This document shows positions 5,672 through 27,486 of a DNA stretch of 64,000 bases, in pieces (within the stretch, counting starts at the first letter, position 1; each line of letters begins with the position of its first letter). Location of the stretch: contig OZ223209.1 in NCBI GenBank assembly GCA_965140415.1, forward strand, positions 896,001 to 960,000, in the 5' to 3' direction. This DNA comes from Myxococcota bacterium. Lineage in GTDB: Bacteria; Myxococcota_A; SURF-8. The translations under genes and the position numbers were made by a program. The notes beneath the pieces were generated by a model that saw only the letters and a list, made by a program, of their open reading frames with translations, was not told the DNA's origin and searched no databases.

Positions 5672-5864
5672 ACCTGTCTGGAAATGGGCTGCATATACAG
5701 CCGGTTAACAATCGCTTTGAAAACGAGTTCACTTTTTGCGGTGCAGATTTTGATCACTAACACTAACGGGGGTCATCATAGAAAATGGAGCAATACTTGG
5801 CAAGGAATTTAATCGAATTCTGACATTCAAAGGACCAAGCTAAAAAGCTGTAGATCTAAAGAGT

Positions 5865-5906
5865 TCCCGACCTCTTCCTTCCAATAACTGAAGAAAGAGG
5901 TCGGGA
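5865..5906 (-). terminator. Strong hairpin just after the giant lipoprotein gene (terminator or mRNA stabiliser)
   Basis: TCCCGACCTCTTCCTTC / GAAGAAAGAGGTCGGGA, a 16/17 inverted repeat 17 nt after the stop. The U-tract is weak. Confidence 0.55.
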
Positions 5907-5922
5907 TTCCCTTACAAAAGAC

Positions 5923-14900: not shown

Positions 14901-14934
14901 CCAGCATGAACCATCGATTGATAGAGCTTTTCAT
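5923..14934 (-). CDS. Giant (~3003 aa) surface lipoprotein: six choice-of-anchor-D/ASH-like Ig domains, 25 x 57-aa Cys/Asp repeats (MopE-like putative metal-binding motif), DUF1565-like segment and Gly-rich C-terminus
   Basis: ATG at 14934 with RBS AAGGGA gives MKSSINRW...LLSAC (lipobox). Six 'LDFGxV...xLxN' Ig-like units. ELCNGxDDDC repeats. SIFVA...GSDSNSG...PVATIAHAI...GTY. Gly-rich tail. The ORF track's start at 15078 overlaps the predicted promoter. Confidence 0.88.
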   Translation of the reverse strand: MKSSINRWFMLVLAVMLAIGLLSACADDSGVADTDGDTDTDQESGGTGCLLDLDCPSDSVCHQGNCIPSDQNPCSEGEECSRDTDCPVGEACGDDCTCSGTDGDVPDGDGGGDDDGTVDGDKPVGDCELGPEILAEQILDFGYVPYNTEVVRTVNISNLCEGRTLTVTSMEIVSTSTEFSLIQPPDFPAMITGIAESIQVDISYKPLDAGPDEAELVISSDDPDGPFRVQLRSQYKGTADIDANPNPLDFHNVVVGDPAAERTLILKNLPGGENDNAVLRINGLYLESESSEVFAVNASTLPLRIGQGQELEITVLCHPPQMGEFSDRLIVESNDIDESTYVVELSCTGVAPVLKVETLQAQNTLNFGEQRAGVPVTIELTLSNSGGGMLIVQPPEMVDTSSEAFSLDLTAFANGEIALEAGQHAALPVTFNTMTVGEHSGQIRIDNNTFGSQNFIVNLRGEAVPSSLLADPEALQFPETRVSQQVTRTLTLTNTGSLPVTLVTIGFAETSDVFSFDETDVLENVVLESEGTHELHVTFAPLARQNYSALIHIVTDDLVTVSQDIAVGGLGIAPVLVVTERDNPDFVDQIDFGEVGLNSTEERVLDLANQGDAVLTIQSLQITTNSTLEEFSFEDTGSIQIAAGGHVGVTLRYSPITYPGEDIGGFLITGDDPFSPQVAIGLFGIGTDQRLSVAPVSPLEFPDTHFAAQNVQRIRLRNSGILGVLVVDSLEVLPGFYSDVFVILPPEQGLPFELYPGEANTLAVDIAFLPVVPEGESSEEPFDFNATVQITSNSYLSTTSDYELAGRGVPCPEGWWDLDDDPSDCEYPCDISNYGVEICDDLDNDCNGETDDGANVTSNCTPPDYALAICPYGFCDFECLQGYHRCGEQCYPDDDPMHCGSGCLECQDDGNTCTFNVCEQGMCGHQIEENQCLIDHDCYEYRDSNPDNVCRICLPFFDPTSWSDIEDGALCDDGLFCTVDDACSAGDCTDTQPRDCSEAIVEPQCQVPDCDEEHDSCIALPANVGEGCDDGDPCTDNDRCGEDGACVGDPLEWIGQPCDGNDADLCEEGVFTCELGEQICTDISSDTPDLCNGEDDDCNPDTPDGTHESWLSTACDGTDTDLCEEGQYICQDGSQVCTDTSENNLDLCNGEDDDCNPLTADGSGESWLQTACDGTDTDLCEEGLYICQGGNQVCTDTTDNTRDICDGQDNDCNPDTPDGSDESWYGTDCDGEDSDNCKEGIYSCIDAQQSCSDNTGDNLELCDGVDNDCNVFTLDGRDEDWYGNECDGEDADLCAEGIFLCSESAQICSDNTTDNLEYCDGQDNDCNPNTADGADAVWLGDPCDGEDADLCEEGVFQCVNGDKTCDDTTSNNLELCNGEDDDCNPFTADGNDEEWLGNACDGEDTDLCEEGIFQCVDAAQSCSDTTGNLLDLCDGEDNDCNPATIDGQHEAWYDTPCDGPDSDLCNEGNFTCQDSVKTCNDASDDTPDLCNGQDDDCNPYTPDGADESWLGDACDGEDSDLCEEGFLRCVDGGQSCSDTTGANLELCDGLDNDCNPATADGADATWLGDACDGNDADLCQEGVYVCSGAAKTCNDESGDTPDLCNGQDDDCNPITPDGAHESWLGTACDGSDSDLCEEGFFQCVDGGQSCSDTSGENPELCDGLDNDCNPATADGADATWLGDLCDGNDSDLCEEGVYICSGAAKTCNDNSADTLDLCNGQDDDCNPATSDGADEAWFGTACDGNDADLCEDGSYQCISGGQQCVDDPGFGAELCNGVDDDCNPATPDGADETWLGTACDGNDADLCLEGVFECAFGSKTCSDTSGDNLELCNGNDDDCNPATLDGRDESWFGDSCDGPDTDLCEEGSYTCTDSVKTCTDATSNNVESCNGVDDDCNPATADGADATWLGTTCDGVDTDLCKEGEYICQDGNQTCNDTTADNVELCNGTDDDCNPATADGSQESWLNDVCDGPDDDLCEEGVYVCSGGSQTCTDTSTSSLELCDGLDNDCNPATPDGADASWLGTACDGADSDLCKEGSYICNNGSQTCNDTTGDTLDLCNGSDDDCNPATADGADASWLGDPCDGPDSDLCQEGGFICSGGSKTCGDNTGDSLDLCNGVDDDCNPATADGTDATWLGDPCDGPDTDLCQEGSFICDGGSKTCNDATGNTLDLCNGADDDCNPATADGADASWLGDTCDGSDTDLCHEGVYTCSGGSQSCSDTSGNNAEICNGVDDDCNPATADGTDASWLGDPCDGADSDLCKEGTYSCTNGNQSCSDTSGNDLELCNGNDDDCNPATADGADESWLGDACDGTDSDFCAEGNFYCSSGSKLCSDTSGNNVEICNGIDDDCDPSSADGADESWLGNSCDGPDSDLCTEGISVCSGGNQTCTDTTGNNLELCNGVNDDCNGATPDGSDESWYNTACDGPDSDLCMEGVNLCQSSHQVCTDSTGSTTETCNGSDDDCDGYTDEDDAGNPLTADCYTGPSGTEDVGICHGGMKTCSGGSYGSCVGQQTPQSTDAPDSSGIDSNCDGVDGVKATSIFVATPANGGSDSNSGAFGDPVATIAHAITLANSCSPKCDVLISSGTYTASVTLVAGVDLFGGYDPSTWARNLSIQTVIVGSTTRAVIANGLSSDTKLQGLTIRGKNYSSSGTATYALWVNNTLSERLLVDNCLIQAGNGGRGVDGSSGSTGATGSNGGNGSGGSGGSRGTVNCSPYGSANGGTGGGSWDCGSGGGGTGSAGTDTASGGGGGSAGSNKCSGCDDTGGNGGGGGAGYAGATGSRGSTSSDSDGYFSSGYWYGATSSSGYRGKNGTGGGGGGGGGTDIDPWYCVFWSGTQIGGGGGGGGAGGCGGLPGTGGGQGGGSFGIVLIGSTIRVTNTDIELGDGGNGGSGGAGGNGGVGKGGGAGYNPSGDEAGTGGGGNSGGDGGGAGGSAGGCGGPSIGTALVSSSSIATINVSYSGGSGGSGGAGGAGGRTGGDGSQATSGQTGCTGYKSNVRTY
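7504..11778 (-). repeat. Intragenic tandem array of 25 x 171-bp (57-aa) units
   Basis: The first Trp codon is at 11778 and the 25th at 7674, a difference of 4104 = 24 x 171. Consensus WLGxxCDGxDxDLCxEGxxxCxxGxxxCxDxxGxxxELCNGxDDDCNPATADGADxx. Confidence 0.92.
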
Positions 14935-15063
14935 GGGATATCCCTTTTTATTGCAGTGGCAATGATGGAACGGCGCAACCGCCCGAAGCACCCCACCCGG
15001 GCCGCTTGCCGATCCAACCTTCATGACCGTTTCGTTTGTACTAATTTCTAACTCACACTTCCT

Positions 15064-15093
15064 ATTATGTTGTGCCAACTAGCCTTTTGTCAA
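15064..15093 (-). promoter_or_regulatory. Sigma70-type promoter for the giant lipoprotein gene
   Basis: Minus strand TTGACA-N18-CATAAT, about 130 nt upstream of the ATG at 14934. Confidence 0.6.
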
Positions 15094-15760: not shown

Positions 15761-18502
15761 TCAATCGCAGACCGGCACTAGCGAGACCGTATCCAGCGCG
15801 ATATTGTAAGCGTTGGATACGGAATTCTTGCTCATCACTTTCACGATCACGCGATGGGTTCCGGCTTTCAAGTTTTGGTTAGGATAAACCGCCATCAACG
15901 CTTCGGAACCCGTTCCACGATACAAATCGATGGGATCTCGGCCATAGGTTTCTTCTTCCAAAGCGCGATTCAATGGGCTGTCCATGAAGACCCGCACCAT
16001 TGCGGAATTGGCCTGCTGATGGAATCCCAGTTGCAATTCACCAGTGAAATCATGCTCCAACTGCAAGGTAAGCACCAACTGGTCACCCACTTCAAATCCA
16101 TGACCTAGCAGCAGTGAATCATCCGACGAGCCCGATACGTCGATCATTTCCTGATCCTGCGGCGGCAGGCAAAGATCGTGATTTACAACCTCTTCCGCCT
16201 CCCATTCCATGCCGCTATCCAGGCAATCCACTACAGGTGGAGCCGTTTCGCAGGCATCGCCAGGGAAGCTACCGTCGTCGTTGGCCTGATCGGCATTGGG
16301 TGTGTTGATGCAGTTGTCCGTGCAATAAAAGACCTGTCCCGGCAGACAGTAGGCGCTGCCAAGATCGGAAATCCCGTCGCGGTCACGGTCGAACTGGGGA
16401 GACGCGCACCGGAAGCCCAGATCTTCGGCGCTGTTCATCTGCACGACGCTGCGGCGGAAACCGGAGAGGATCGGCCTTGGACCATCCTGATACGAGCCGC
16501 CGCGTATCATGCGCACACCGCCCGAGCGTGTCAGCGGATTGGTGGCGTCGGTGGAATCGTAGGCGGCGTAAGCATCGAAAACCCATTCGGCGACATTTCC
16601 GGCCAGATCGAACACCCCGAAATAGCTGCGGCCATCCTTGGTCTGGTTCGAGCCGTCGTAGCTCCCCACCGGCATCGGATGCGACTTGCAGGGATCGTCG
16701 TCTACGCCATCGCCGTTCTGGTCGCCATAGTTTGTTAACTTGCAGGAAGGTGCATCATCGCCCCAGGGATAATCACGCCCATCCGGGTTGCTGTTGGGGC
16801 CGCGCGCGCCATATTCCCATTCCGCTTCGCTTAGCAGGCGCTTGCCGGTATATCGGCAATAGGCTTCCGCCGCCGACCAACAGATCTGAGTGACCGGCCA
16901 GAGTTCATGACCCACTTCGGGCACGGCGCCGAATTCGCCATAGGTCGTACCACAGGCGTTGTCGGTATGATTTTTCCATTGCGGCAGCGCCGTTACGAAA
17001 CTGTAATAGTCCTGCTCCGTAACTTCGGTGCGATCCACCCAGTAACCTTGGTTTAGAAGCGTGTTGTGAGTCGGGCGGGCGTTATCGCAACTCATTGCCT
17101 CGCAGCTTTCCTGGGACAGTCCCTGGAGGAAGCTGTTGGGTCGGATGTACACCATTTCACTCGTGCTGTTGCCGTTGCCCATGACGTTGGTTGCACAGAA
17201 ACCGAGTTCATCTAAGGGCCAGTCCATACAGTCCGGGTTCACCCCGCGACAGTAGCCACCTTTGCATTGATCGCTTTGCGTACCGGGTAGACCGTCGTTG
17301 CAACTCATTCCATCCTGCACCGGAGAATAGGTACAGGCATGTTGTTCCTGGCTCCATTGGTCCAGGGTGCATACGTTGTCGTCATTACAGACCGGAAGAA
17401 CGTCATCCTCGACTTCATCTCCGTCGATGAGCTCATCCGCATCGCCGTCGCCATCACCGTCGAAATCGCCATCGGGCGACTCCCACAAGCCCATCAACAC
17501 GCTTTCCAGATGTTCCAGAACCAAAACCAGTTCGGCATCGTTGGGACAGATGAAATCGATTAAGCGATCCGTTTCGAAGTCCGTAATATCCTGACCGAAG
17601 AAATACAGGTGGCCGCTCCATCCGTCGCTACAGGGACGCCCGTTGAAGCAGTAATCCAATGACTGCAAATGTCCGACGAGGTAATTCACCAGACTGTCGG
17701 CCTGATCTGTGGACAATACTCCCTGCTGCTGCTCCGTGCCACTATTCGGTGTTGTAAGTTGCATCCAGTAACTACGATCCGGGTCAAGGCGGAAGACCAG
17801 TTCGTTTTCCAGCGGGTTGTTCCGGCGATAGTCGAGCCTGGGCATTTGTTCGTAATCGCCCGGACCGCTGCATTCGCCTTCCCAGTCCAGATCGTCATCC
17901 AAATCGCCGTCTACGGTTGATTCATCCGAATCGCCGGGCAACTCATCGCCATCGGCCTGCATGAAGTGTACGATGTACTGATCCAGCCACAGATGCAGAT
18001 CATCCAGCAGCAACAACAGGCGATCATCAGCGCTGCAACGCCAGCTAAGCTCCGCTTCCGGTGTTCCTCTGAAAATCAGCGAACCGGCCAGACAAGCCCC
18101 CGTATCCACTTCATAATCGCCGGTCAGTTGTGGTAGATGTTCTCCCAGCAGTTCCCGCAGAGCCTGAATCGCTGCCGGTCCCAGTTCACCTTGCTTTTGT
18201 TCGGTGCGCACCGTCATACCGGTGAAATTATAATCTGCCCGGTAGGTTCCATCGGCTTGCAAATTGAGATCCAGACCCAGTTTTTCCGGAATGGTTGTGG
18301 AGAGTTCAACCAGCGCTTCCGTTGCGGCATCCGCAGAATCATTATCACCATCGGGAATGTAAATATCACCGTCCGAGATCTGTGTGTCACTGTCCCCGAT
18401 ATGGTATACGTTCGTTCCGGAATTGCAGGCGTATGATGCCGCCAGCACCATCATCAGGAAAAAACCGGATGCTATCGTTTTAGCCAGGACTTCATTTTGC
18501 AT
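15761..18502 (-). CDS. Multidomain lipoprotein with an FGE-sulfatase (SUMF1/EgtB/PvdO-like) domain, Cys-rich and TSP3-like motifs and a C-terminal beta-sandwich
   Basis: Lipobox-like SYAC. FGE motifs DRTEVT, PVTQICWSAAEAYC, KRLLSEAEWEYGARG, YPWG, DLAGNVAEW, RGGS and GFRC. DNCINTPNADQANDD. RBS GGAG before the ATG at 18502. Confidence 0.85.
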   Translation of the reverse strand: MQNEVLAKTIASGFFLMMVLAASYACNSGTNVYHIGDSDTQISDGDIYIPDGDNDSADAATEALVELSTTIPEKLGLDLNLQADGTYRADYNFTGMTVRTEQKQGELGPAAIQALRELLGEHLPQLTGDYEVDTGACLAGSLIFRGTPEAELSWRCSADDRLLLLLDDLHLWLDQYIVHFMQADGDELPGDSDESTVDGDLDDDLDWEGECSGPGDYEQMPRLDYRRNNPLENELVFRLDPDRSYWMQLTTPNSGTEQQQGVLSTDQADSLVNYLVGHLQSLDYCFNGRPCSDGWSGHLYFFGQDITDFETDRLIDFICPNDAELVLVLEHLESVLMGLWESPDGDFDGDGDGDADELIDGDEVEDDVLPVCNDDNVCTLDQWSQEQHACTYSPVQDGMSCNDGLPGTQSDQCKGGYCRGVNPDCMDWPLDELGFCATNVMGNGNSTSEMVYIRPNSFLQGLSQESCEAMSCDNARPTHNTLLNQGYWVDRTEVTEQDYYSFVTALPQWKNHTDNACGTTYGEFGAVPEVGHELWPVTQICWSAAEAYCRYTGKRLLSEAEWEYGARGPNSNPDGRDYPWGDDAPSCKLTNYGDQNGDGVDDDPCKSHPMPVGSYDGSNQTKDGRSYFGVFDLAGNVAEWVFDAYAAYDSTDATNPLTRSGGVRMIRGGSYQDGPRPILSGFRRSVVQMNSAEDLGFRCASPQFDRDRDGISDLGSAYCLPGQVFYCTDNCINTPNADQANDDGSFPGDACETAPPVVDCLDSGMEWEAEEVVNHDLCLPPQDQEMIDVSGSSDDSLLLGHGFEVGDQLVLTLQLEHDFTGELQLGFHQQANSAMVRVFMDSPLNRALEEETYGRDPIDLYRGTGSEALMAVYPNQNLKAGTHRVIVKVMSKNSVSNAYNIALDTVSLVPVCD

Positions 18503-18634
18503 GTCGCACTCCCTGTGCATGATTGTCCGATACGACATTTTACCATTTCCCCGCAACGAAGTGAAACTATTACAGAGAATCCCTCGCCATAGGGTACATC
18601 ACAAGATAGTGCATTGATTCTTTAGGTTTACCAG

Positions 18635-18727: not shown

Positions 18728-18850
18728 GGATCCTTGAAAATCGCAATCATTTGTGATGCACCCTGCCAGGCTCCCACATCTGAAATTGACTTTACGTTTC
18801 AAGGGCTTTCGGATACAGTAAGCGCTGTTGCAACAAGGAATGACGTAGTT

Positions 18851-20947
18851 ATGCGCAGAGATTTGAACGATTTCGACACGTTTTCGGCTTTTATTGCGGA
18901 TTTAATCCGTGAACGAAGTCCGTTGGAATCCGTGCGCGTTTCTCCCCAGGCAGACGGATCGTTGCGCTTCGATATCCAGGTGAAATCTCTCGATTTCACT
19001 TTCTTCTGGAGTGAAGATTCTCCGATCACAGGAATCTGCAACCCGTTAAGAGACGGCTATCTCTGCTGCAACGCAGAGCCGAACGAGTCCGATTTGCTTC
19101 GCAAAGCCTGGACCGTTAAATTGACAGCCTTTCTTTCGGAAAAAATCAACCGCTTGCTCGATGGCGAACCGCCCGCCCTGCTGCAATGGCGAAACCGACA
19201 TCATCAAACGATTTCCTGGGGAATCCGACTTTTTCCGTGGTTGTTTTCCGGGTTGATCAAGAAGGGGCGCACCCGCTTCGGGGAATATACCCTGATTGAC
19301 CTCAATGAGTATGAAGGATACCTGAATCTTGTTTTCGAATCGAGACAAGCTCGGGTAGCATTTCGGCTTTCACCAAAAGGAACGGTCAAAGGAAAACCGG
19401 TGTGCTCGCGTGGTCCGCTTGAATTGCATATCATGGAGGATACACGCAGTCATAATGATCTATTGGAGCCTTTCCATGCGATTGAGCAATTCATGGGGTA
19501 CGTACTGGCTCGCTGCCTGCCGAAATCCTTTAGTCTGATCTTCGAAGGCAACGATGTACCTGCCGGGTTGCGGTCACCGGAAGTTCAACTCAATTTTCTC
19601 AATACGGAGCCGCCGGTCGGTTCCTCCATTTATGAAACGATTTTCACTACTTCACCGGATATCGTGACCATTTCGGCCTGCGATCATGAATGCTTCAATA
19701 TGTTTTCTTTTATCGCCGCGCCGCGTGAAAGTTGGCTGACGGTCATGCCTTGGTCGCTTAAACCGCGACTGGATTTCGTCGATCATGGACACAACGTGCT
19801 GCTCTCGAATCGAAGCATTATCATGGGCTCCGATGAAGTGGAGCATTCCCTGGCGCAATTGGACCACCTGAATCCATCGCCGGAAATGGCGATTTTCGTT
19901 GAATCCTGTATTCCGCGTATGATCGGTCTGGACCTGGAAGGTCCGGTCAATCGTTTTCAGAGGAAAAACACCGTTCCTCTCATTCCGTACAAGGTAACGC
20001 TTTCTGAAAAGCAGTATCTGGACACGTTCAGAGAGTTTTGGGTGCATTGCTACGAACAAATGGCCGATAAAGCCGCCGCACCGGAGTCGGATGTTGTCTC
20101 CCTGTTTGGAATCACAGACGATACAGGCGATTTGGTGTATCAACTGCTTGAACAAAACGGCGTTCGCTGCCAATCGAATCTGTTCCCGCTGCTCGACGTT
20201 CCCTCCCTTCGGAATCTACCGAAAAGCTCTCTGCTTGTGGTGAATGAATGGGAGTACATCGAGGTTCTGTTTTCCGATCTGATACAAAAACTGAATCGCC
20301 CGGTGTTGCGCCTGCCACTGCCATACGGTATTGAAGGTTCACTTTTATTCGTGCGCGAAATCGTGAAAAGGCTGCATGATCGGGATCTCATGTCGCTGGA
20401 TCAAAACGAGCAACTGTTGCAATACCAACAGGAGTTTCAAAAGGAGAAGGAGCGTATCGAAGGCGAGCGGGTAGCCATCATTCTGAAAATGGAGGATTTA
20501 CCCGAGCAACTGCTGCCCGGGCGTCGCTTCGGTCTGCCGTTTATCGATTTGCTTCACGAACTTGGTTTGGCAGTCGATTGTCTGGTGTATGTGCCTGATG
20601 CGACTTCAAGCGACCTCGTAGAGCCTTGTAGGGCAGCAGGGTTGAAGTTGGAAAACGGGGATCGTTGCACTGTGTTTCGCCGTTACGACGACCTGACGGA
20701 ACTGCTTCACGACGGTGAATTCAAGCTGGTATACAGTGAGGCGTTTCGGGATCGCAGGATCACGAGTGCAGGGAAGTTTCCAATCAATCTGAAGGCGTTC
20801 CAACCCGGATTCTCGGGAGCCGTAGCGACAGCCAGGCGCATTGCCAAAGCGCTTGAAATGAACTTCTACAAAAATCACGGTTATCGTCTGACTTCGCCGG
20901 TCGCCCATCTGCGTCCATCTGAAAAGGAGGAGCGCAATGGAGAATAA
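18851..20947 (+). CDS. Divergent nitrogenase component-1-like oxidoreductase subunit (NifD/BchN-like) with a large unknown N-terminal extension
   Basis: The C-terminal ~440 aa shows component-1 signatures: ACDHEC, LSNRSIIMGS, IFVESCIPRMIGLDL, LPLPYGIEGSLLFVREI, EGERVAI and FQPGFSGAVATARRI. It overlaps the next gene. The start is either TTG 18734 or ATG 18851 (AAGGA upstream). Confidence 0.7.
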   Translation: MRRDLNDFDTFSAFIADLIRERSPLESVRVSPQADGSLRFDIQVKSLDFTFFWSEDSPITGICNPLRDGYLCCNAEPNESDLLRKAWTVKLTAFLSEKINRLLDGEPPALLQWRNRHHQTISWGIRLFPWLFSGLIKKGRTRFGEYTLIDLNEYEGYLNLVFESRQARVAFRLSPKGTVKGKPVCSRGPLELHIMEDTRSHNDLLEPFHAIEQFMGYVLARCLPKSFSLIFEGNDVPAGLRSPEVQLNFLNTEPPVGSSIYETIFTTSPDIVTISACDHECFNMFSFIAAPRESWLTVMPWSLKPRLDFVDHGHNVLLSNRSIIMGSDEVEHSLAQLDHLNPSPEMAIFVESCIPRMIGLDLEGPVNRFQRKNTVPLIPYKVTLSEKQYLDTFREFWVHCYEQMADKAAAPESDVVSLFGITDDTGDLVYQLLEQNGVRCQSNLFPLLDVPSLRNLPKSSLLVVNEWEYIEVLFSDLIQKLNRPVLRLPLPYGIEGSLLFVREIVKRLHDRDLMSLDQNEQLLQYQQEFQKEKERIEGERVAIILKMEDLPEQLLPGRRFGLPFIDLLHELGLAVDCLVYVPDATSSDLVEPCRAAGLKLENGDRCTVFRRYDDLTELLHDGEFKLVYSEAFRDRRITSAGKFPINLKAFQPGFSGAVATARRIAKALEMNFYKNHGYRLTSPVAHLRPSEKEERNGE

Positions 20948-22253
20948 CAACCGCAAAAATCCTTTGGGAACGCCGATTAACATCGTTGCTCCCTACGTCG
21001 ATGGCGCATACCTGGCTACCAATGCGATATCGGATGCCTACCTGATCTATCATGCTCACGATTGCGGCTATTTCAAAGCGGAAAAAATTGTCGGGCACCA
21101 TGATCTGTTCTCGGATCTATTGAGATACGAGCGGATAGGGAGGGTAGTGCGCAGTAATATCGGCTCGAAGGAATTCGTGTTGGGCGGAGAGGACAGGCTC
21201 TCGCGCCGCATACGGCAAATCACCGAAACTTATCGCTGTGAAGTGCTGTTCGTAGTCAGTTCAAACGTCTCGATTCTTGCCGGCGAAGACCTGCGTCCGC
21301 ATCTGGTTGAGATGGAAGGGAAAACCGGCGTACCGATTGTCACTCTGCCTGAGCGTCACGTTTACAAGGATTACCTGACCGGCTACCTGGATACTGTCAA
21401 GGCGCTGCTTGAACGGGTGCAGTTCAATTCAGACGAGGCGTCGCACGGCGTTGCGATTACAGGTTTTGTGTTCGAACGCAATGAAGCGGATACTGCGGCG
21501 GATATAGAAGAAATCAAATCGATGTTGGCCGCGATGGGCGTTGAAGTGTCGGCGGTGTTTTTGGATGGCGGAAGAGCGCAACGCTGGAAAGAACTTCCGC
21601 CACCGGAGGCGGTGATCGACATCGCTCACGGAGAGGGAGGCGGAGCCACGCTTGCCAATCGCTATGACATTCCCTGCCTGGAGATCGGGGCGCCAATCGG
21701 AATTGAAGGAACAAAGAAATGGCTTGAGGAAGTCGCGGCTTGGTTGAACGCAGAGGCCAAGGCGAAGTCCTATATCGAATGGCAACTGGAAGGGCTGGTC
21801 GATCAACTCGAATGGATCATTCCCCGGTATTTTCTGGGGCGAGGTGCAATTCTGTTTGCCGATCGTCTTAAAATGGTTGCGCTTGCAGATTTTCTTGAAG
21901 AGATTGGGCTGACTGTACTGGGAGCAGAATGCACGTCGCATGAATTCGAAGACGATGCGAAAAACCTTCTCGCCCAGCGCTATGGCAGGCTTCCCGTGAT
22001 GGCCATGGAACTACGCGAATATATTACCGATAACATGAAGAGGGACCGGTTGCATATCGGTCTGGGTACCAGTTTGTTCAACCAGAACGCTGCCGCGCAG
22101 GGACTGCCCTTCGTCGAGATCGGTTATCCTTCGAATTTCCACCATGCTCTTTATCCAAGACCTACATTCGGCTTTGGCGGAGTCCGGGTGCTTATTGAGC
22201 GAATGATCAACGCGATCAATGCCACCGAAATTTATTATGGGAGTAACCGATGA
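20937..22253 (+). CDS. Nitrogenase component-1-like oxidoreductase subunit (NifK/NifE/BchB-like)
   Basis: DGAYLATNAISDAYLIYHAHDC, EFVLGGEDRL, ILAGEDL, DIEEIKSMLAAMG, APIGIEGTKKWLEEVA, PFVEIGYP and PTFGFGG are typical Oxidored_nitro motifs. RBS AAGGAGGAG. Confidence 0.85.
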   Translation: MENNNRKNPLGTPINIVAPYVDGAYLATNAISDAYLIYHAHDCGYFKAEKIVGHHDLFSDLLRYERIGRVVRSNIGSKEFVLGGEDRLSRRIRQITETYRCEVLFVVSSNVSILAGEDLRPHLVEMEGKTGVPIVTLPERHVYKDYLTGYLDTVKALLERVQFNSDEASHGVAITGFVFERNEADTAADIEEIKSMLAAMGVEVSAVFLDGGRAQRWKELPPPEAVIDIAHGEGGGATLANRYDIPCLEIGAPIGIEGTKKWLEEVAAWLNAEAKAKSYIEWQLEGLVDQLEWIIPRYFLGRGAILFADRLKMVALADFLEEIGLTVLGAECTSHEFEDDAKNLLAQRYGRLPVMAMELREYITDNMKRDRLHIGLGTSLFNQNAAAQGLPFVEIGYPSNFHHALYPRPTFGFGGVRVLIERMINAINATEIYYGSNR

Positions 22254-23071
22254 GAATGATTGCATTTTACGGAAAAGGCGGCATCGGAAAATCGACCCTC
22301 GTTTCTGCGCTTTCCACCTTGTTCGCCAAGAATGGGCATCGAGTGCTTCAGTTCGGTTGCGATCCGAAGAGCGATTCCTGCTTCACACTTTTGGACGGCC
22401 CAATCACCACCGTAATGGAAGAGTGGACAGAGCGCGGCGAGCAGGATTTGACTTTGGAGCACTGCTTGATGACGACACCCAACGGTGTCGATTGCCTTGA
22501 AGTGGGCGGTCCGCAACCGGGAAGCGGATGTGCGGGGCGAGGTATCACGAAGACTTTGGAAATGATAGGAAGCCCCACGGAGTTGAAGAATCGGTACGAC
22601 ATCGTCCTTTTCGATGTGCTGGGCGACGTGGTTTGTGGTGGTTTTTCCGCACCGATGCGTGAAGGCTACGCACAAGAAGTGTACATCGTTACTTCAGGCG
22701 AATTTCGATCGCTGTATGCAGCCAACAATATCGCTTTCGGAGTGAAGAAGAACGCCATCAACGGAACGCGGCTGGGAGGTTTGATCGCCAACTTGCGCAA
22801 TGTTCCGGAAGAAGTGGAAAAAATCGAACAACTGGCAAAGTTGCTAAAAACTCGCGTAGCCGGTGTCATCCCGCGTGACGATGCCATAGGAAAAGCCGAG
22901 TTGATGCGACGCCCGGTCGTCGATACCGACCCGAACTGTCCGGCTACCAAGGCGCTGATGAAGCTCTCCGAAACGATTTCCGCTATCGAGCAAAGCCAGC
23001 TCGTCGTTCCTGCACCATTGCCTCGCATCGAATTCGAAAATCTATTCTTCAATACCAGGTCAACGAGTTAG
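22250..23071 (+). CDS. nifH: NifH-family Fe protein (nitrogenase reductase-like ATPase); probably not part of a canonical N2-fixing nitrogenase
   Basis: YGKGGIGKST P-loop, GCDPKSDS, GGPQPGSGCAGRG (Cys94, Arg97), DVLGDVVCGGF (Cys129) and YAANNI. ATGA overlap with the upstream gene. Confidence 0.93.
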   Translation: MRMIAFYGKGGIGKSTLVSALSTLFAKNGHRVLQFGCDPKSDSCFTLLDGPITTVMEEWTERGEQDLTLEHCLMTTPNGVDCLEVGGPQPGSGCAGRGITKTLEMIGSPTELKNRYDIVLFDVLGDVVCGGFSAPMREGYAQEVYIVTSGEFRSLYAANNIAFGVKKNAINGTRLGGLIANLRNVPEEVEKIEQLAKLLKTRVAGVIPRDDAIGKAELMRRPVVDTDPNCPATKALMKLSETISAIEQSQLVVPAPLPRIEFENLFFNTRSTS

Positions 23072-23292: not shown

Positions 23293-25767
23293 GTGCATAT
23301 CGACGAGCTGGAAAAGCGAAAAGCGGAGTTGCTGCAAGAAATCGAAGCGCTTACCGAGCGTGAGCAGGAGTTGCGTCAGAAGCTAGACGCCCTATCTAGT
23401 TCAAAAAATACCGACTGCTGTTCCGATAGTAATCGATTTCGCCTGTTAGTTGAAGCCTCCAACGATTGGATCTGGGCGGCAGATCGTAACGGGTTCATTA
23501 CCTATGCGAGTCCTCGTGTAAAAGAGGTGCTCGGCATGGACCCGGAAGAATTGGTCGGGAAGACTCCCATCGATTTGCTACCCGCAGAAGTCGCAGAACG
23601 AATTCTTGAAAACTTTTCGTTTTCAAGAGAAACCGGTGCTCCATTAGATCCGTTTGAATTTTCTCTCGAAAACAAATCTGGAAATCTGCAACAATTGGAA
23701 ATCGGGGGGCGCGCTATCCTACAAGCGGATGGCACGTTCTTGGAGTATCACGGATACCTACGTGATATCAGCCTTCGAAAACGTGCAGAGGCGGAACTGA
23801 TTGCTCATCGCGAGAAGCTTGAAAAAGTTGTTGATGAGCGCACTCAGGAAATGGATCATGCCATTCAGGAATTGACTCGGCAAATCAACAAACGCGCCGC
23901 CACAGAGCATGCCTTAATGGAAAGCGAAGCGCGCCTGCGTTCGGTAATCGACCATTCCCCATTGATCTTCTGGACGGTGAATCAGAAAGGTATCCTGACC
24001 TTCATGCAGGGGCAGGCTTTGACAAACCTCGACTGGAATTCGGAAGAACGGATCGGTCATCCCATAAACGAACTTGGCTTATTGGGAAACGAGCAGCAAA
24101 CCCGGAAAAATCTGGACCGTATCATTAGCGGTAAGAATTTGACCGTCGAAGTGGAAATCGACGGGATTACCTTCGAAAATCGCTGTGCGCCTCATTTCGA
24201 TGCCGTTGGCGATATCTCCGGGGCGATTGGTGTGGCTATCGATATTTCCGAGCGACGCAAAGCGGAACGCGCCTTAGAAACCGAACGCGAGCAACTGCTT
24301 TCCATTTTCGACAGCATGGATGAGCCGATCTACATTGCCGATCCAGATAATTACCATCTGCTCTTCGTCAATCAGGCGTTCAGCAAAATCTTCGAAACTG
24401 GTGATAACGGTTTGTGCTACCAGGTATTATACGGTCTGGATTCTCCCTGCGCCTTCTGCACGAATACGATTATTTTGCAAGAAGAACACGGGCGCTCGCA
24501 TATATGGGAATATCGAAATCGCAAAAACATGCGGTGGTATAAATGTATCGACCGAGCCATAAAATGGCCCGATGGTCGTATGGTGCGCTTTGAACTGGCG
24601 ATTGACATCACGGAAAGCAAGCTCGCCGAGATTCAATTGCAGCGCGAAAAGAAAATGTTTATCGCCGGACCGCTGGTGGCATTTAAATGGGTTGCAGATA
24701 GCGATTGGAGTTGCGAATATGTTTCGCCCAATGTCAGTCAATTCGACTATGCTCCCAGTGATTTTACCAGTGGCCTGGTCAAATATTCGGATCTTATTCA
24801 TCCCGAAGACCAGCAGCGCGTCCTCTCCGATGTCAAAACTTTTCTCGAACAGGAAAGCGATTATTCCGAGCGTGATTACCGTTTCCTGACAGGTGCGGGT
24901 TTGGTACGCTGGCTCTACGAATTCTCGGCCAAAGTGCGAGACACCAATGGTGTGGTGACGCATCTGGACAGCTACATTCTGGATATTACCGACCGCAAGC
25001 AGGCAGAGGCCGATCTGATGACCAAATCGGATGCTCTGGTGCGCAGTAATAATGACTTGCAGCAATTCGCCTACGTTGCTTCTCATGATTTGCAGGAACC
25101 GTTGCGTTCGATCGCCGGATATGTGCAATTGTTGGAGAAGAGATACGGAAAAGACTTAGACGACAAGGCCAAGCACTACATCAATCGCTCGGTAGCTGCC
25201 AGCAAACGCATGCAAAGTCTGATCAACAATCTGCTGGAATTTTCCCGTGTGGCCACCAAAGCTAAGCCTTTCGAACCGGTTCGGATTGAAGACGTTGCAT
25301 CTGAAGCTATGGAGAATCTGAAGGCTCGTATCAGCGACAGTGGCGCTAAGGTCATTTTAGGAGCCCTGCCCGAAGTGTCCGCCGACCGGAACCAACTCGG
25401 GTTGTTGATGCAGAATCTGCTTGGTAACGCGATGAAATTTATCGACAAGCGCCCACCCGAAATCCACGTCGATGCCTTGCGTACCGAAGAGACTGACGAA
25501 AATACTCCCGAAATCGCTCGTGTTCCGGGCTGGACGATCCGTGTCGCTGACAATGGTATCGGTATTGAGAAAGACTATTTCGAACGCATTTTCCAACTCT
25601 TTCAGCGTCTTCATACGCGCGAAGAGTATCCCGGTACCGGGATGGGATTGTCGATTTCCAAGCGTATTGTTGAACGTCACGGAGGATATATCTGGGTCCA
25701 ATCGCAAGTCGGCAAAGGAACCACTTTTTACTTCAGCATTCCCGATCACAGAGAGGAAACCACATGA
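23293..25767 (+). CDS. Cytoplasmic sensor histidine kinase with four PAS domains (Cph1-like HisKA)
   Basis: Four PAS/PAC units ending in DIS/DIT-x-RK-like motifs. H-box FAYVASHDLQEPLR, NLLGNAMKF, DNGIGI, FQRLH and GTGMGL. No TM segment. Confidence 0.92.
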   Translation: MHIDELEKRKAELLQEIEALTEREQELRQKLDALSSSKNTDCCSDSNRFRLLVEASNDWIWAADRNGFITYASPRVKEVLGMDPEELVGKTPIDLLPAEVAERILENFSFSRETGAPLDPFEFSLENKSGNLQQLEIGGRAILQADGTFLEYHGYLRDISLRKRAEAELIAHREKLEKVVDERTQEMDHAIQELTRQINKRAATEHALMESEARLRSVIDHSPLIFWTVNQKGILTFMQGQALTNLDWNSEERIGHPINELGLLGNEQQTRKNLDRIISGKNLTVEVEIDGITFENRCAPHFDAVGDISGAIGVAIDISERRKAERALETEREQLLSIFDSMDEPIYIADPDNYHLLFVNQAFSKIFETGDNGLCYQVLYGLDSPCAFCTNTIILQEEHGRSHIWEYRNRKNMRWYKCIDRAIKWPDGRMVRFELAIDITESKLAEIQLQREKKMFIAGPLVAFKWVADSDWSCEYVSPNVSQFDYAPSDFTSGLVKYSDLIHPEDQQRVLSDVKTFLEQESDYSERDYRFLTGAGLVRWLYEFSAKVRDTNGVVTHLDSYILDITDRKQAEADLMTKSDALVRSNNDLQQFAYVASHDLQEPLRSIAGYVQLLEKRYGKDLDDKAKHYINRSVAASKRMQSLINNLLEFSRVATKAKPFEPVRIEDVASEAMENLKARISDSGAKVILGALPEVSADRNQLGLLMQNLLGNAMKFIDKRPPEIHVDALRTEETDENTPEIARVPGWTIRVADNGIGIEKDYFERIFQLFQRLHTREEYPGTGMGLSISKRIVERHGGYIWVQSQVGKGTTFYFSIPDHREETT

Positions 25768-26201
25768 ATGAGCGCGCTTTGGAAATCCTGATGATCGAAG
25801 ACAACCCCGATGATGTCGAGTTGGCGATCGAGGCTTTGCAAGAAGCCAAGATGCTGATTCACATCGAGGCCGTTCATGACGGCCTGGAAGCCTTGAAGTA
25901 CCTGCGCAAAGAAGATCCTTACCAAAACAAAACAACTCCGGACCTGATCCTGCTGGATCTCAACATGCCACGCATGGATGGTCGCCAGGTTTTAGCGGAA
26001 ATCAAGCAGGATCACATTCTGCGTCGCATTCCGGTTGTAGTACTGACTACCAGTTCCGCAGAAGACGATATAATCAAAGCATATGAGCATCACGTGAACT
26101 GCTACATCACGAAGCCGGTGGATTTCGAGCAATTTTTAAAAGTCGTGCAAGCCATCGAGAATTTCTGGTTCACGGTCGTACAACTTCCTCCAAAGGAGTG
26201 A
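25764..26201 (+). CDS. Single-domain response regulator (Rcp1-like)
   Basis: IEDNPDD, LLDLNMPRMDG, LTTSS and YITKPVDF. ATGA overlap with the kinase. Confidence 0.93.
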   Translation: MNERALEILMIEDNPDDVELAIEALQEAKMLIHIEAVHDGLEALKYLRKEDPYQNKTTPDLILLDLNMPRMDGRQVLAEIKQDHILRRIPVVVLTTSSAEDDIIKAYEHHVNCYITKPVDFEQFLKVVQAIENFWFTVVQLPPKE

Positions 26202-26205
26202 GGAC

Positions 26206-27486
26206 ATGACCAAACCCCAGGTTCGCATTCTATTGGTTGAAGATAATCCGGACGATGCTTTTTTGTTCACCGAAATGCTGGACGAAGACCTGCCATATCA
26301 TGTCAATATCGACCACGTCGAACGGTTGAAGCAAGCCATCAGCCGTGTTGAGACGCAGCGCTACGATGTGGTTTTTCTCGATTTGGGACTTCCGGAGAGC
26401 AAAGGCCTGGACACCTTTCGACTTTTTCAACCCAAAGGCGGTCATTTGCCGGTGATTCTTTTAACCGGCCTGAATGATGAGGATGTCGCATTAACGGCCT
26501 TACAGGAAGGAGCGCAGGACTTTCTGGTTAAAGGCGATGTAGACGGCAAGGAGCTAAGTCGAGCCATCCGCTACAGCATTGAACGGAAAAAAGTGCAGTT
26601 GGCATTTGAGGAAAGTGAAAAACGTTTTCGAATTCTTGCCGATGCCGCTCTGGAAGGATTGTGGTTTCATGATAAAGGCAAGGTGCTTGACGTCAATCGG
26701 GCGCTGTGCACGATGTTCGGTTACAAGGCTTCGGAATTGATCGGAAAGCAGGACTTGAGTTTTTTCTTTGAACCGGAGCCTTCAGAAGAACTGGTGCAGG
26801 CACTCTTTTTTGGCTCTGAAATCCCTTTCGAAGCCACCTGTATGCGTAAAAATGGCGAACCGTTTATCGCAGAAATCAACGATCGACCGATTCCATATCA
26901 TGGAAAAATGGTACGTGTGGTTGTGCTTCGCGATATTACGGATCGCAAGCGTATGGAAGAAGTGCTGCAACAACACGCCACAATGGACAGCCTGACAAAT
27001 TTATTCAACCGGCGCATGATTATGGATCATCTAAGCCGGGAGTTCAAATCGAGTCAACGCCATGATTATCCGTTCAGCGTTTGCCTGATCGATCTGGATA
27101 AATTCAAACAGATCAACGACACCTATGGGCACCAGGCCGGAGACGAAGTGCTGGTGCGTTTTGCCAAATTATTAAAGGAGCAACTCCGCACCGAAAATCT
27201 GGCCGGTCGCTACGGTGGTGATGAATTTATCATCCTCTTTCCACACACCAACGCATCACAGGCCGAGATCGCTTTGGAGCGTGTGCGTAAAGCGCTGGAG
27301 CAAATTGTCTTTCTCGCTGAAGATGGTGAACATTTTTCCGTTACCGGAACCTTCGGTGTGGCTGAAAATTGCCCGGAATTCAACGATCATGAAGAGTTGT
27401 TCAAAATGGCGGATCAAGCTTTGTATGCGGCCAAGGAGCGGGGACGCAACCAGGTTTATAAAATCGAAGCGAAAAACGAAAAATAA
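26206..27486 (+). CDS. REC-PAS-GGDEF diguanylate cyclase
   Basis: Receiver (VEDNPDD, FLDLGLP), PAS, DSLTNLFNRR, DLDKFKQINDTYGHQAGD and RYGGDEF. Confidence 0.93.
   Translation: MTKPQVRILLVEDNPDDAFLFTEMLDEDLPYHVNIDHVERLKQAISRVETQRYDVVFLDLGLPESKGLDTFRLFQPKGGHLPVILLTGLNDEDVALTALQEGAQDFLVKGDVDGKELSRAIRYSIERKKVQLAFEESEKRFRILADAALEGLWFHDKGKVLDVNRALCTMFGYKASELIGKQDLSFFFEPEPSEELVQALFFGSEIPFEATCMRKNGEPFIAEINDRPIPYHGKMVRVVVLRDITDRKRMEEVLQQHATMDSLTNLFNRRMIMDHLSREFKSSQRHDYPFSVCLIDLDKFKQINDTYGHQAGDEVLVRFAKLLKEQLRTENLAGRYGGDEFIILFPHTNASQAEIALERVRKALEQIVFLAEDGEHFSVTGTFGVAENCPEFNDHEELFKMADQALYAAKERGRNQVYKIEAKNEK

What the first reader, a model, noticed from the sequence alone, without database searches (positions are those of the whole stretch)
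19679..21266. Non-canonical cluster ligands in the two component-1 subunits
Seen in sequence (numbering from 18734): subunit 1 has C316-x3-C320 (ACDHEC) and C392 (ESCIPRMIGLDL). Subunit 2 keeps only C43 (HAHDC); its first Cys position reads PYVDGA (cf. CAFDGA in NifE) and its third reads SSNVSILAGEDL. I could not identify equivalents of the FeMo-co ligands Cys275/His442. Established: the P-cluster needs three Cys from each subunit, whereas the DPOR NB-cluster uses three BchN Cys plus one BchB Asp. Inference: a single intersubunit [4Fe-4S] cluster with 3+1 or 2+1 ligation, and an open organic-substrate cavity. The alignment was done by eye.
Basis: partly seen in the sequence, partly recalled or inferred. 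Interest (0 to 1): 0.75.

Follow-up and report, generated by a model that had tools for sequence, protein, structure and literature searches.

The report
Nitrogenase-like reductase with reduced cluster ligands
This is a three-gene nitrogenase-like enzyme, most likely one of the uncharacterised "Group VI" relatives of nitrogenase, whose two large subunits keep only three of the six usual cluster-holding cysteines, so it probably carries one simple iron-sulfur cluster rather than nitrogenase's complex metal centres.

Summary
Numbering from 18734, subunit 1 has C316, C320 and C392. Subunit 2 keeps only C43, with Y20 and N110 at the other two P-cluster positions.

The genes form a translationally coupled operon: NflD-like 18734-20947, NflK-like 20937-22253, NflH-like 22250-23071.

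Across relatives only three cysteines are conserved:
- alpha C320 (inferred NifD Cys88 position), 35/35 rows.
- alpha C392 (Cys154 position), 35/35 rows.
- beta C43 (inferred NifK Cys95 position), 128/138 rows.

C316 is lineage-specific (6/35 rows) and is not the Cys62 equivalent. It may act as a substitute fourth ligand here. The column matching MarD Cys270 (the review's counterpart of the FeMo-co cysteine) holds Glu. No His lies where His442 would be expected. The genome has no NifB.

A heterodimer model scores 0.73 against 0.01 for the best control and puts C320, C392 and C43 at the interface.

The best reading is an ATP-driven reductase with one inter-subunit [4Fe-4S] cluster. It fits the uncharacterised Group VI NFL systems, for which loss of P-cluster cysteines is already published. 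I did not test its phylogenetic placement.

Extras: every alpha-like subunit examined has an N-terminal extension of at least 136 residues (about 285 here, folded, only weakly like lipid-binding folds). The genome also holds a second paralogous operon.

The parts
18734..20947 (+). NflD-like (alpha-like) component-1 subunit, 737 aa from TTG 18734 (the public gene call starts at ATG 18851 = M40). It has a folded N-terminal extension (about residues 45-270), a disordered linker (271-303) and a nitrogenase component-1 core (about 304-720).
   Evidence: PF00148 matches residues 356-707, E 3.4e-15. The AF2 model has pLDDT 73.7 and its core matches NifE/NifN/NifD chains at Foldseek E about 1e-15. Only one non-self full-length relative turned up among 5.8 billion proteins (P0002, 41% identity).
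19679..19693 (+). C316-D317-H318-E319-C320. This is the family motif H-x-[DE]-x-E-C, here reading A-C-D-H-E-C. C320 is the inferred NifD Cys88-type ligand. C316 is a lineage-specific extra Cys.
   Evidence: C320 is Cys in 35/35 rows, C316 in 6/35, D/E317 in 33/35 and E319 in 30/35; H315 is His in 30/35 but Ala here. Residues 317-329 lie at the modelled alpha/beta interface.
19907..19909 (+). C392, the NifD Cys154-type ligand (ESCIPRMIGLDL).
   Evidence: Cys in 35/35 rows. It aligns to the 'TSC'/'NTC' Cys of MarD and NifE and lies at the modelled interface.
20937..22253 (+). NflK-like (beta-like) component-1 subunit, 438 aa. Its start overlaps the subunit-1 stop by 11 nt.
   Evidence: PF00148 matches residues 23-427, E 1.3e-54. 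The family has 800 representatives at E<=1e-3 and 157 at E<=1e-30. The C-terminal half aligns best to NifK/AnfK chains.
21060..21065 (+). D42-C43 of the beta-like subunit. C43 is its only conserved Cys and sits at the inferred NifK Cys95 / BchB Asp36 position.
   Evidence: C43 is Cys in 128/138 and 22/22. D42 is Asp in 62/138 and 14/22. C43 lies at the modelled interface.
20994..20996 (+). Y20, an aromatic residue at the inferred first P-cluster Cys position of the beta-like subunit (PYVDGA).
   Evidence: Y or F in 119/138. Residues 16-22 lie at the modelled interface.
21264..21266 (+). N110, at the third P-cluster Cys position of the beta-like subunit.
   Evidence: It aligns to the MarD and NifE Cys. 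The family has Pro 81, Ser 24, Thr 9 of 138 at this column.
22250..23071 (+). NflH-like ATP-dependent iron protein, 273 aa, with P-loop GKGGIGKS and cluster Cys C94 and C129. Its start overlaps the subunit-2 stop by 4 nt.
   Evidence: PF00142 E 3.9e-81. The best solved relatives are NifH chains, E about 1e-65 over the full length. No NCBIfam equivalog cut-off is reached: nifH 286.5 against 394.35, CfbC 272.6 against 402.

Best explanation
The three overlapping genes encode a nitrogenase-like (NFL) two-component reductase.

Component 2 is an NflH dimer holding a [4Fe-4S] cluster on C94 and C129. It binds and hydrolyses ATP and passes low-potential electrons to component 1.

Component 1 is an NflD/NflK hetero-oligomer with a single Fe-S cluster at the alpha/beta interface, most likely a [4Fe-4S]. 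The cluster is held by alpha C320 and C392 (the inferred NifD Cys88 position and the aligned Cys154 position) and beta C43 (the inferred NifK Cys95 position). In this orthologue, C316 is the best candidate for the fourth ligand. It would replace the lost Cys62-type Cys and give an all-Cys 3+1 site like NifEN.

There is no P-cluster and no FeMo-co-type cofactor. Electrons go from the interface cluster to an organic substrate that is still unknown.

The system is most probably a member of the uncharacterised Group VI NFL clade (Elusimicrobia, Gracilibacteria, Myxococcales).

Shown here: gene identities, conservation of the three Cys, absence of the other ligands and of NifB, and a supported heterodimer model with the three Cys at the interface. 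Inferred: cluster type, C316 as a ligand, direction of electron flow, and Group VI membership.
For: -
- Conserved Cys: C320 and C392 in 35/35 alpha-like rows, and these are the only Cys columns at 90% or more. C43 is Cys in 128/138 and 22/22 beta-like rows.
- C392 and N110 are mapped residue by residue onto the MarD and NifE Cys.
- The motif 'F-x-F-[IV]-x-H-x-D-x-E-C' follows a beta strand and starts a helix in the model (E310-316, H318-324), as the Cys88 motif does in NifD (recalled).
- Complex model: ipSAE 0.73 against 0.01 for the best of 3 controls. The runs agree in at least 62% of contacts and partner pLDDT is at least 82. That mark was reached by 58 of 80 solved complexes and 2 of 110 mismatched pairs. 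Interface residues include alpha 317-329 and 392-393, and beta 16-22, 41, 43 and 109-111.
- The MarD Cys270-equivalent column is Pro in 25/35 rows and E505 here.
- No NifB: best match 29.1 bits against a cut-off of 343.65.
- Only two NifH-like genes exist in the genome, one in each paralogous operon.
- Fit to Group VI: NflH keeps both cluster Cys and the P-loop; at most 4 of 6 P-cluster Cys are present; there are no FeMo-co ligands and no NifB. These features are described in PMC13474568, sections 2.4 and 7 (read).
- Radical SAM genes are confirmed by Pfam beside the operon in 6 of the 20 fetched related loci, with a seventh grouped with them by BLAST only. This matches the hallmark in bioRxiv 10.1101/765248 (passages read).
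- Named relatives are 'Myxococcales bacterium'.
Against: - C316 is absent from 29 of 35 alpha-like rows, including the paralogue in the same genome. It was not among the confidently contacting interface residues. The local model confidence is low: pLDDT 59-68 for residues 301-320 and 40 for 321-330.
- The equivalence C320 = Cys88 rests on motif and secondary-structure position. HMMER local alignments to solved chains did not print that stretch, and the family has about 12 extra residues between this Cys and the next conserved block.
- The complex score may reflect the model's memory of solved NifDK, NifEN and DPOR complexes.
- No coordinates were available, so no Cys-to-cluster distances were measured.
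- This operon has no radical SAM or tetrapyrrole genes nearby.
- Group VI placement was not tested by phylogeny, because no reference sequences were at hand.
- Three conserved Cys also fit a [3Fe-4S] cluster or a site-differentiated [4Fe-4S] cluster.
Confidence: 0.6

Rival explanations
1. The cluster is a site-differentiated [4Fe-4S] held by only the three conserved Cys (alpha C320, C392; beta C43). The fourth iron carries a carboxylate (alpha D317, E319 or beta D42), water, or the substrate itself. C316 is not a ligand. Catalysis would then happen at the cluster iron, as in the ATP-activated 2-hydroxyacyl-CoA dehydratases or in IspG/IspH (recalled analogies).
For: Only three Cys are conserved across the family. 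The candidate fourth ligand varies: a Cys62-type Cys in one sub-clade, a Cys at -4 in 6/35 rows, and neither in the rest. D/E at position 317 occurs in 33/35 rows and E319 in 30/35. One pair (L044) has no fourth Cys and no acidic residue at alpha 317 or beta 42. D317 and E319 are interface residues in the model. DPOR sets a precedent for a carboxylate ligand (PMC13474568, section 2.4).
Against: In this orthologue, its closest relative P0002 and the L035 orthologue, a fourth Cys sits four residues from C320. That C-x3-C spacing can bind one cluster, as in radical SAM enzymes (recalled). No chemistry was tested. The acidic residues may serve proton delivery or substrate binding instead.
Confidence: 0.25
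2. The interface holds a smaller cluster, [3Fe-4S] or [2Fe-2S], bound by the three conserved Cys.
For: Three invariant Cys is the usual count for a [3Fe-4S] cluster (general knowledge).
Against: Every characterised member of the superfamily has at least a [4Fe-4S] cluster at this site: DPOR, CfbD, NifEN, and ISR as predicted (PMC13474568, sections 2.4, 6.2 and 9.4). A cluster that accepts electrons from an NifH-type [4Fe-4S] at very low potential is expected to be [4Fe-4S].
Confidence: 0.07
3. Component 1 is a degenerate or regulatory scaffold that no longer binds a redox cluster. The three Cys would be structural.
For: Canonical ligands are heavily lost. An earlier scan note (e1-1169261) describes a Myxococcota NflH partner said to have lost all its cluster Cys. 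This operon has no metabolic genes beside it.
Against: The three Cys are strictly conserved at 20-30% identity, exactly at cluster-ligand positions. NflH is intact, with both cluster Cys and the P-loop. The genes are translationally coupled. The family is widespread and multi-copy (42 of 201 genomes in the phylum).
Confidence: 0.05
4. It is a true nitrogenase or maturase-type protein with a P-cluster and/or an L/M-type cofactor.
For: The best solved-structure matches by sequence profile are MarD and NifE, and the fold matches NifEN and NifD.
Against: Only 3 of the 6 P-cluster positions are Cys. There is no Cys at the column matching MarD Cys270 and no His442 equivalent. There is no NifB. No NCBIfam equivalog cut-off is reached.
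Confidence: 0.02

Closest known systems
Group VI nitrogenase-like (NFL) systems NflH/NflD/NflK (Meheust et al. 2020, bioRxiv 10.1101/765248; reviewed in Chem Rev 2026, PMC13474568 section 7)
   Same: An H+D+K gene set with an intact NflH (cluster Cys and P-loop). NflD and NflK are very divergent and keep at most 4 of the 6 P-cluster Cys. There are no FeMo-co ligands and no NifB in the genome. Relatives often sit next to radical SAM genes. The group occurs in Myxococcales. Its function is unknown and a simple [4Fe-4S] cluster is predicted.
   Different: I did not test membership by phylogeny. This operon has the gene order D-K-H and no radical SAM or tetrapyrrole neighbours. Neither paper, in the parts I read, mentions the N-terminal extension of at least 136 residues on NflD, the invariant 2 alpha + 1 beta Cys triad, or the C-x3-C variant. 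Their supplementary alignments (Figs S5, S6) could not be seen and may show some of this.
DPOR BchN/BchB (ChlN/ChlB) NB-cluster
   Same: A single inter-subunit [4Fe-4S] cluster, asymmetric ligation, no second cofactor, and an organic substrate reduced with electrons from a NifH-like ATPase. The beta subunit contributes one ligand at the NifK Cys95 position.
   Different: DPOR uses three alpha Cys plus one beta Asp. Here the alpha subunit keeps only the Cys88- and Cys154-type Cys, and the beta ligand is Cys (C43) with a semi-conserved Asp just before it. NCBIfam BchN and BchB scores are far below their cut-offs (35 against 324; 90 against 490).
NifEN [4Fe-4S] site (three NifE Cys plus one NifN Cys; ligand numbering recalled)
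   Same: An all-Cys 3+1 inter-subunit cluster is what this orthologue would have if C316 is a ligand. The 'FFC' sub-clade of the family keeps exactly the NifE-type three alpha Cys. NifE is among the best profile and fold matches.
   Different: There is no L-cluster or FeMo-co site and no NifB. In this protein the third alpha Cys lies at -4 from the Cys88-type Cys, not at the Cys62-type position.
[quoted passage not shown]
   Same: It uses the Cys88- and Cys154-type Cys of the D subunit to bind a bridging [4Fe-4S] cluster (PMC13474568, section 6.2).
   Different: CfbD is a homodimer with symmetric 2+2 ligation. Here there is a heterodimer whose beta subunit has lost the Cys154-type Cys (N110). 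The TIGR03282 match is weak: 31 bits against a cut-off of 268.
Isethionate reductase IsrDK (Group IV-F)
   Same: An NFL heteromer predicted to hold one [4Fe-4S] cluster through a reduced Cys set (PMC13474568, section 9.4).
   Different: ISR keeps alpha Cys88 plus beta Cys70, Cys95 and Cys153 (1+3). This family keeps alpha Cys88 and Cys154 plus beta Cys95 (2+1). ISR is linked to a NifB-like IsrB, and no NifB-like gene is found here.

Membership tests
Nitrogenase component-1 superfamily (Pfam PF00148 Oxidored_nitro) | Match to PF00148 above the gathering score in both large subunits | tested here: met
   Subunit 1 scores 56.3 bits and subunit 2 scores 186.1 bits, against a cut-off of 28.6. The fold matches NifE/N/D at E about 1e-15.
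NifH/Fe-protein family (PF00142) | P-loop plus two cluster Cys (NifH Cys97/Cys132 equivalents) | tested here: met
   272.9 bits. GKGGIGKS, C94 and C129 are aligned to NifH chains.
Group VI NFL (NflHDK) | NflD/NflK keep at most four of the six P-cluster Cys positions | tested here: met
   Three of six canonical positions are Cys (alpha C320, C392; beta C43), plus the non-canonical C316.
Group VI NFL (NflHDK) | No FeMo-co ligands (Cys275/His442 equivalents) and no NifB in the genome | tested here: met
   The MarD Cys270-equivalent column is E505 here and Pro in 25/35 rows. No His lies between residues 659 and 715. The best nifB match is 29.1 bits against a cut-off of 343.65.
Group VI NFL (NflHDK) | Neighbouring radical SAM genes | tested here: inconclusive
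   None lie within about 15 kb on either side of this operon. Radical SAM genes are confirmed by Pfam in 6 of the 20 fetched related loci (L026, L028, L029, L032, L033, L034), and L027 is grouped with them by BLAST only.
Group VI NFL (NflHDK) | NflH/NflD branch inside the Group VI clade (sister to Group V) in a phylogeny with reference sequences | not testable with these tools
   No named Group VI reference sequences could be fetched. Supplementary data of 10.1101/765248 are closed. The support is indirect only: named relatives are Myxococcales MAG proteins.
Nitrogenase proper (NifDK/VnfDK/AnfDK) | Three P-cluster Cys in each subunit, plus Cys275 and His442 | tested here: not met
   The NCBIfam nifD, nifK and nifE scores are 20-65 bits against cut-offs of 427-653.
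DPOR (BchN/BchB) | Three BchN Cys plus the BchB Asp ligand; equivalog-level similarity | tested here: not met
   The alpha subunit lacks the first Cys. The beta ligand position is Cys, and the preceding Asp is conserved in only 62/138. BchN scores 35.2 against 324 and BchB 89.6 against 490.
CfbCD | Homodimeric D subunit with symmetric 2+2 Cys ligation and no K subunit | tested here: not met
   A distinct K-like gene is present and is modelled as the partner. The beta subunit lacks the Cys154-type Cys.
Methylthio-alkane reductase (MarDK) | A full P-cluster Cys set, plus MarD Cys270 and His429 for the L-like cluster, and MarB | tested here: not met
   MarD is the best solved sequence match (2.5e-31), but the ligand columns are not Cys or His and no NifB/MarB-like gene reaches the cut-off.

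The most novel reading that the evidence does not exclude
The whole family, likely Group VI NFL, may work with a three-cysteine, site-differentiated [4Fe-4S] cluster at the alpha/beta interface. Its open iron, or an iron with a variable ligand, would bind the substrate directly. The N-terminal extension on NflD, a tandem alpha/beta-wrap domain of about 225 residues here with faint likeness to lipid-binding folds, would capture or deliver a hydrophobic substrate. That would be a catalytic logic not yet seen in the nitrogenase superfamily: ATP-gated electron injection into a substrate-bound cluster, as in the 2-hydroxyacyl-CoA dehydratase 'archerase' systems (recalled analogy).
Probability: 0.12. 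Interest if true: 0.8.

Novelty: new member of a known kind. Interest (0 to 1): 0.45.

Why it matters
According to the 2026 review, Group VI NFL enzymes have no characterised member and occur mostly in organisms that cannot be cultured.

This locus adds several things:
- A residue-level hypothesis for the cluster site: alpha C320 and C392 plus beta C43 are invariant, and the fourth ligand varies between sub-clades.
- An N-terminal extension on every NflD-like subunit examined, which the parts of the literature I read do not mention.
- Two paralogous operons in one single-contig genome, one with and one without the extra C316. They form a natural pair for testing what the fourth ligand does.

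If the three-Cys site proves to be site-differentiated, it would widen the known range of cluster chemistry in the nitrogenase superfamily. The general point, that P-cluster and FeMo-co ligands are lost and a simple [4Fe-4S] cluster is predicted, is already in print for this group. The surprise for a specialist is therefore moderate.

Tried and rejected
1. The search for related loci in genome contigs. The single protein gave no confirmed relative. A 3-sequence alignment (A6) gave 4 loci, one titled 'uncultured Myxococcales bacterium'.

2. The full-length subunit-1 word-based search found only itself and one relative. The profile search with A3 found 11 proteins, nine of them from one sub-clade, because only 8000 candidates were scored. 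The alpha-like census (35 rows) is therefore dominated by one phylum and is not a random sample.

3. HMMER profile searches against solved structures, using the N-terminal parts of the alpha and beta families (A4, A9), did not print alignments over C320 or C43. Their equivalence to NifD Cys88 and NifK Cys95 (BchB Asp36) stays inferred from motif position and the interface model.

4. N-terminal domain:
- The ESM Atlas gave no usable hit.
- Foldseek against PDB gave no hit at E<=1e-3; the best was DynU16 at 4.4e-3 with TM 0.22.
- VIA-align gave Mdm12 SMP at Z 8.2 (rmsd 3.7, 95 aligned), SPLUNC1 and BPI at Z 6.4, JHBP at Z 5.5 for residues 4-111, and DynU16 at Z 4.9 for the second half.
- These values are in the range the tool calls common for unmatched models, so I claim no fold assignment.

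5. I looked for compensation among the candidate fourth ligands (alpha Cys62-type, alpha -4 Cys, beta Asp42) in 22 pairs and saw no clear pattern.

6. Literature: a search for 'nitrogenase-like' + 'Myxococc' + 'group VI' found 0 papers. A search with 'nitrogenase', 'group VI', 'NflH', 'Elusimicrobia' and 'tetrapyrrole' found 5 papers, none of them characterising Group VI.

7. I considered and rejected a P-cluster, a FeMo-co-type cofactor and a cluster-less scaffold (see the rival explanations).

Full report
**What is there.** The finding lies inside three co-directional, overlapping ORFs:
- 18734-20947, 737 aa.
- 20937-22253, 438 aa, overlapping the first by 11 nt.
- 22250-23071, 273 aa, overlapping the second by 4 nt.

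Pfam assigns the first two to the nitrogenase component-1 family PF00148 (residues 356-707, E 3.4e-15; residues 23-427, E 1.3e-54). It assigns the third to the NifH family (E 3.9e-81). No NCBIfam equivalog cut-off is reached for nifD/K/E/N, BchN/B, BchZ, CfbD, nifH, CfbC or BchL. This is therefore a nitrogenase-like (NFL) system and none of the named enzymes.

The third protein has the P-loop GKGGIGKS. It also has Cys94 and Cys129, aligned to the two cluster cysteines of solved NifH chains.

HMMER alignments place N110 of subunit 2 on the cluster Cys of MarD (9d9u_A, 'ATSC') and of NifE ('NTC'). They place C392 of subunit 1 on the same Cys.

One caveat concerns numbering. The public gene call for subunit 1 (P0001) begins at M40, the only close relative aligns from there, and residues 1-41 are disordered in the model. 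The true numbering may therefore be 39 lower.

**Conservation.**
- *Beta-like family.* Subunit 2 belongs to a sizeable but unnamed family: 800 representatives at E<=1e-3 and 157 at E<=1e-30 among 1.84 billion. I aligned 138 of the best 150, leaving out 12 whose lengths fell outside 380-480 aa. C43 is Cys in 128. Position 20 is Tyr or Phe in 119. Position 110 is Pro 81, Ser 24 or Thr 9. D42 is Asp in 62.
- *Distribution.* In the window's own phylum the family occurs in 42 of 201 sampled genomes, with up to 7 matches per genome.
- *Alpha-like partners.* I fetched 20 of these loci. With the window and a second operon in the same genome (below), each beta-like gene sits next to an alpha-like gene, and in 18 of the 22 loci an NflH-like gene was also detected. 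In 35 alpha-like rows (2 of them duplicates of locus ORFs), C320 and C392 are Cys in all 35 and are the only columns with at least 90% Cys.
- *Alpha motif.* The family motif around C320 is H-x-[DE]-x-E-C: His in 30/35, Asp or Glu in 33/35, Glu in 30/35. In the window protein the His position is Ala and the next residue is C316.
- *The fourth Cys.* C316 is Cys in only 6 of 35 rows: the window, its orthologue L035, P0002, L027, L029 and L034. It is Ala in the genome's own paralogue. A different sub-clade (L037, L041, L042, P0163-P0169) has a Cys in the 'FFC' motif about 30 residues upstream, at the likely Cys62-type position. The window has F288-L-N there.

The conserved core is therefore two alpha Cys plus one beta Cys. 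The fourth ligand is either one of two alternative Cys positions or is not a Cys at all.

**Other ligands and maturation.** MarD Cys270 is the ligand of the L-like cluster and is the residue the review lists for MarD alongside nitrogenase's FeMo-co Cys275. It aligns to a family column that is Pro in 25/35 rows and E505 in the window protein. Subunit 1 has no His between 659 and 715, where a His442 equivalent would lie (the position is judged by eye against the recalled NifD motif). The genome has no NifB: the best match is 29.1 bits against a cut-off of 343.65. It has only two NifH-type genes, one in each operon.

**Structure.**
- *Heterodimer.* A model of the alpha core (residues 286-737), the beta subunit and a riding [4Fe-4S] scored ipSAE 0.73 (three runs: 0.69-0.77) against 0.01 for the best of three controls. 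The runs agree in at least 62% of contacts and partner pLDDT is at least 82. The tool's mark was reached by 58 of 80 solved complexes and 2 of 110 mismatched pairs. The tool warns that the pass may come from memory of solved relatives and that my own alignments and the ligand differ from its calibration.
- *Interface.* Confident interface residues include alpha 317-329 (D317, E319, C320) and 392-393 (C392), and beta 16-22 (Y20), 41, 43 (C43) and 109-111 (N110). C316 is not listed. The tool says an unlisted residue is uncertain, not absent from the interface.
- *Full-length alpha.* The AF2 model (pLDDT 73.7) shows C316 at the end of strand 310-316 and C320 at the start of helix 318-324, which is the strand-to-helix position of the Cys88 motif in NifD (recalled). 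Local confidence is low. The core matches NifEN and NifD chains at Foldseek E about 1e-15.
- No coordinates are returned, so I could not measure ligand distances or a substrate cavity.

**N-terminal extension.** Every alpha-like protein examined has at least 136 residues before the core. Gene-called proteins are 576-606 aa, and the extension is about 285 residues in the window protein. Residues 40-285 fold confidently on their own (pLDDT 86.6, pTM 0.84) into two similar alpha/beta units.

No sequence family, Atlas hit or Foldseek hit at E<=1e-3 was found. VIA-align gives Mdm12 SMP at Z 8.2, SPLUNC1 and BPI at Z 6.4 and juvenile-hormone-binding protein at Z 5.5 for the first unit, and DynU16 at Z 4.9 for the second. 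These hint at lipid or hydrophobic-ligand wrap folds, but they lie within the tool's stated background range. The parts of the literature I read do not mention this extension.

**Context.**
- The operon is flanked upstream by an FGE-sulfatase-domain protein (931 aa) and a GNAT acetyltransferase (195 aa). Downstream are a PAS histidine kinase, a response regulator (judged from its sequence) and a receiver-PAS-GGDEF protein. There are no radical SAM or tetrapyrrole genes nearby.
- A paralogous operon in the order H-D-K (280, 723 and 430 aa) lies about 140 kb away at G000:C1 about 1,056,380-1,060,680. It is also near an FGE-sulfatase-like gene, as judged from its sequence.
- Among the 20 related loci, Pfam confirmed radical SAM genes next to the NFL genes in 6, and a seventh (L027) was grouped with them by BLAST only.
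- Named relatives are from 'Myxococcales bacterium' MAGs.

**Comparison with the literature.** I read sections 2.4, 6.2, 7 and 9.4, and passages of section 10, of the 2026 Chem Rev review (PMC13474568). I also read passages of Meheust et al. 2020 (bioRxiv 10.1101/765248).

Group VI NFL systems were found in Elusimicrobia, two Gracilibacteria genomes and fourteen Myxococcales genomes. They have NflH with both cluster Cys, very divergent NflD and NflK with at most four of the six P-cluster Cys, no Cys275 or His442, no NifB, and many radical SAM neighbours. [quoted passage not shown] The window operon fits every sequence-level feature I could test, but I could not run the defining phylogeny.

The published ligand patterns of the other single-cluster relatives differ from the 2+1 core here:
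- DPOR: 3 alpha Cys plus a beta Asp.
- CfbD: 2+2, from the Cys88- and Cys154-type residues.
- ISR: alpha Cys88 plus three beta Cys.
- NifEN: 3+1 (recalled).

**Verdict.** The interpretation of one simple inter-subunit Fe-S cluster and no complex cofactors is reasonable, and it agrees with what is already predicted in print for Group VI.

The specific 3+1 reading through C316 is possible for this orthologue but is not a family feature and is unproven.

Cluster type, the fourth ligand, the substrate and the role of the N-terminal domain remain open. Supplementary figures of Meheust et al., which I could not see, may already show parts of the Cys pattern.

Noticed in passing
G000:C1 about 1,056,380-1,060,680 (L005:6381-10680, minus strand), outside the window: A second, paralogous NFL operon in the same genome, in the order NflH (280 aa), NflD-like (723 aa, same N-terminal domain), NflK-like (430 aa). 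It keeps the C320, C392 and C43 equivalents but has Ala at the C316 position, which makes it a natural comparison for the fourth-ligand question.
   Followed up: partly
window 18851-19588 (subunit-1 residues 40-285): A folded N-terminal extension on the NflD-like subunit (pLDDT 86.6) made of two similar alpha/beta units. It has no sequence family and only weak structural likeness to SMP/BPI/JHBP-type and START-like lipid-binding folds (Z 8.2 and below). All alpha-like relatives examined carry at least 136 extra N-terminal residues.
   Followed up: partly
window 5923-15078 (-): A 3051-aa ORF with a signal-peptide-like start and about 30 tandem Cys/Asp-rich repeats (pattern CDG.D.DLCEEG...C.D....N.ELCNG.DDDCNP.T.DG). 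It ends in a right-handed-helix-like region followed by a very Gly-rich tail. It is probably a giant secreted or surface protein.
   Followed up: no
window 15761-18556 (-) and L005:974-2533 (-): A protein with FGE-sulfatase (SUMF1-like) character and acidic low-complexity regions lies near each of the two NFL operons. The window copy is confirmed by Pfam; the L005 copy is judged from its sequence only. This may be coincidence in a genome rich in such genes.
   Followed up: no
window 23293-27486 (+); L039:4679-7030 and 11646-14642: A PAS histidine kinase, a response regulator and a receiver-PAS-GGDEF protein follow the operon. Histidine kinases that group with the window's kinase also flank the NFL operon of a same-family genome (L039), which hints at a shared regulatory link.
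   Followed up: no
L035:4809-5306 and 5309-6982 (G018, same order): In the closest orthologous operon (same D-K-H order, NflH E 5e-118) the NflD N-terminal domain is split over two adjacent ORFs. This is either a frameshift or assembly error, or a genuine split gene.
   Followed up: no
L041 and L042 (G046, G168): Some genomes have two NflD-like genes flanking one NflK-like gene (D-K-D). Both D copies carry the canonical three alpha Cys ('FFC...HGDLEC...STCV').
   Followed up: no
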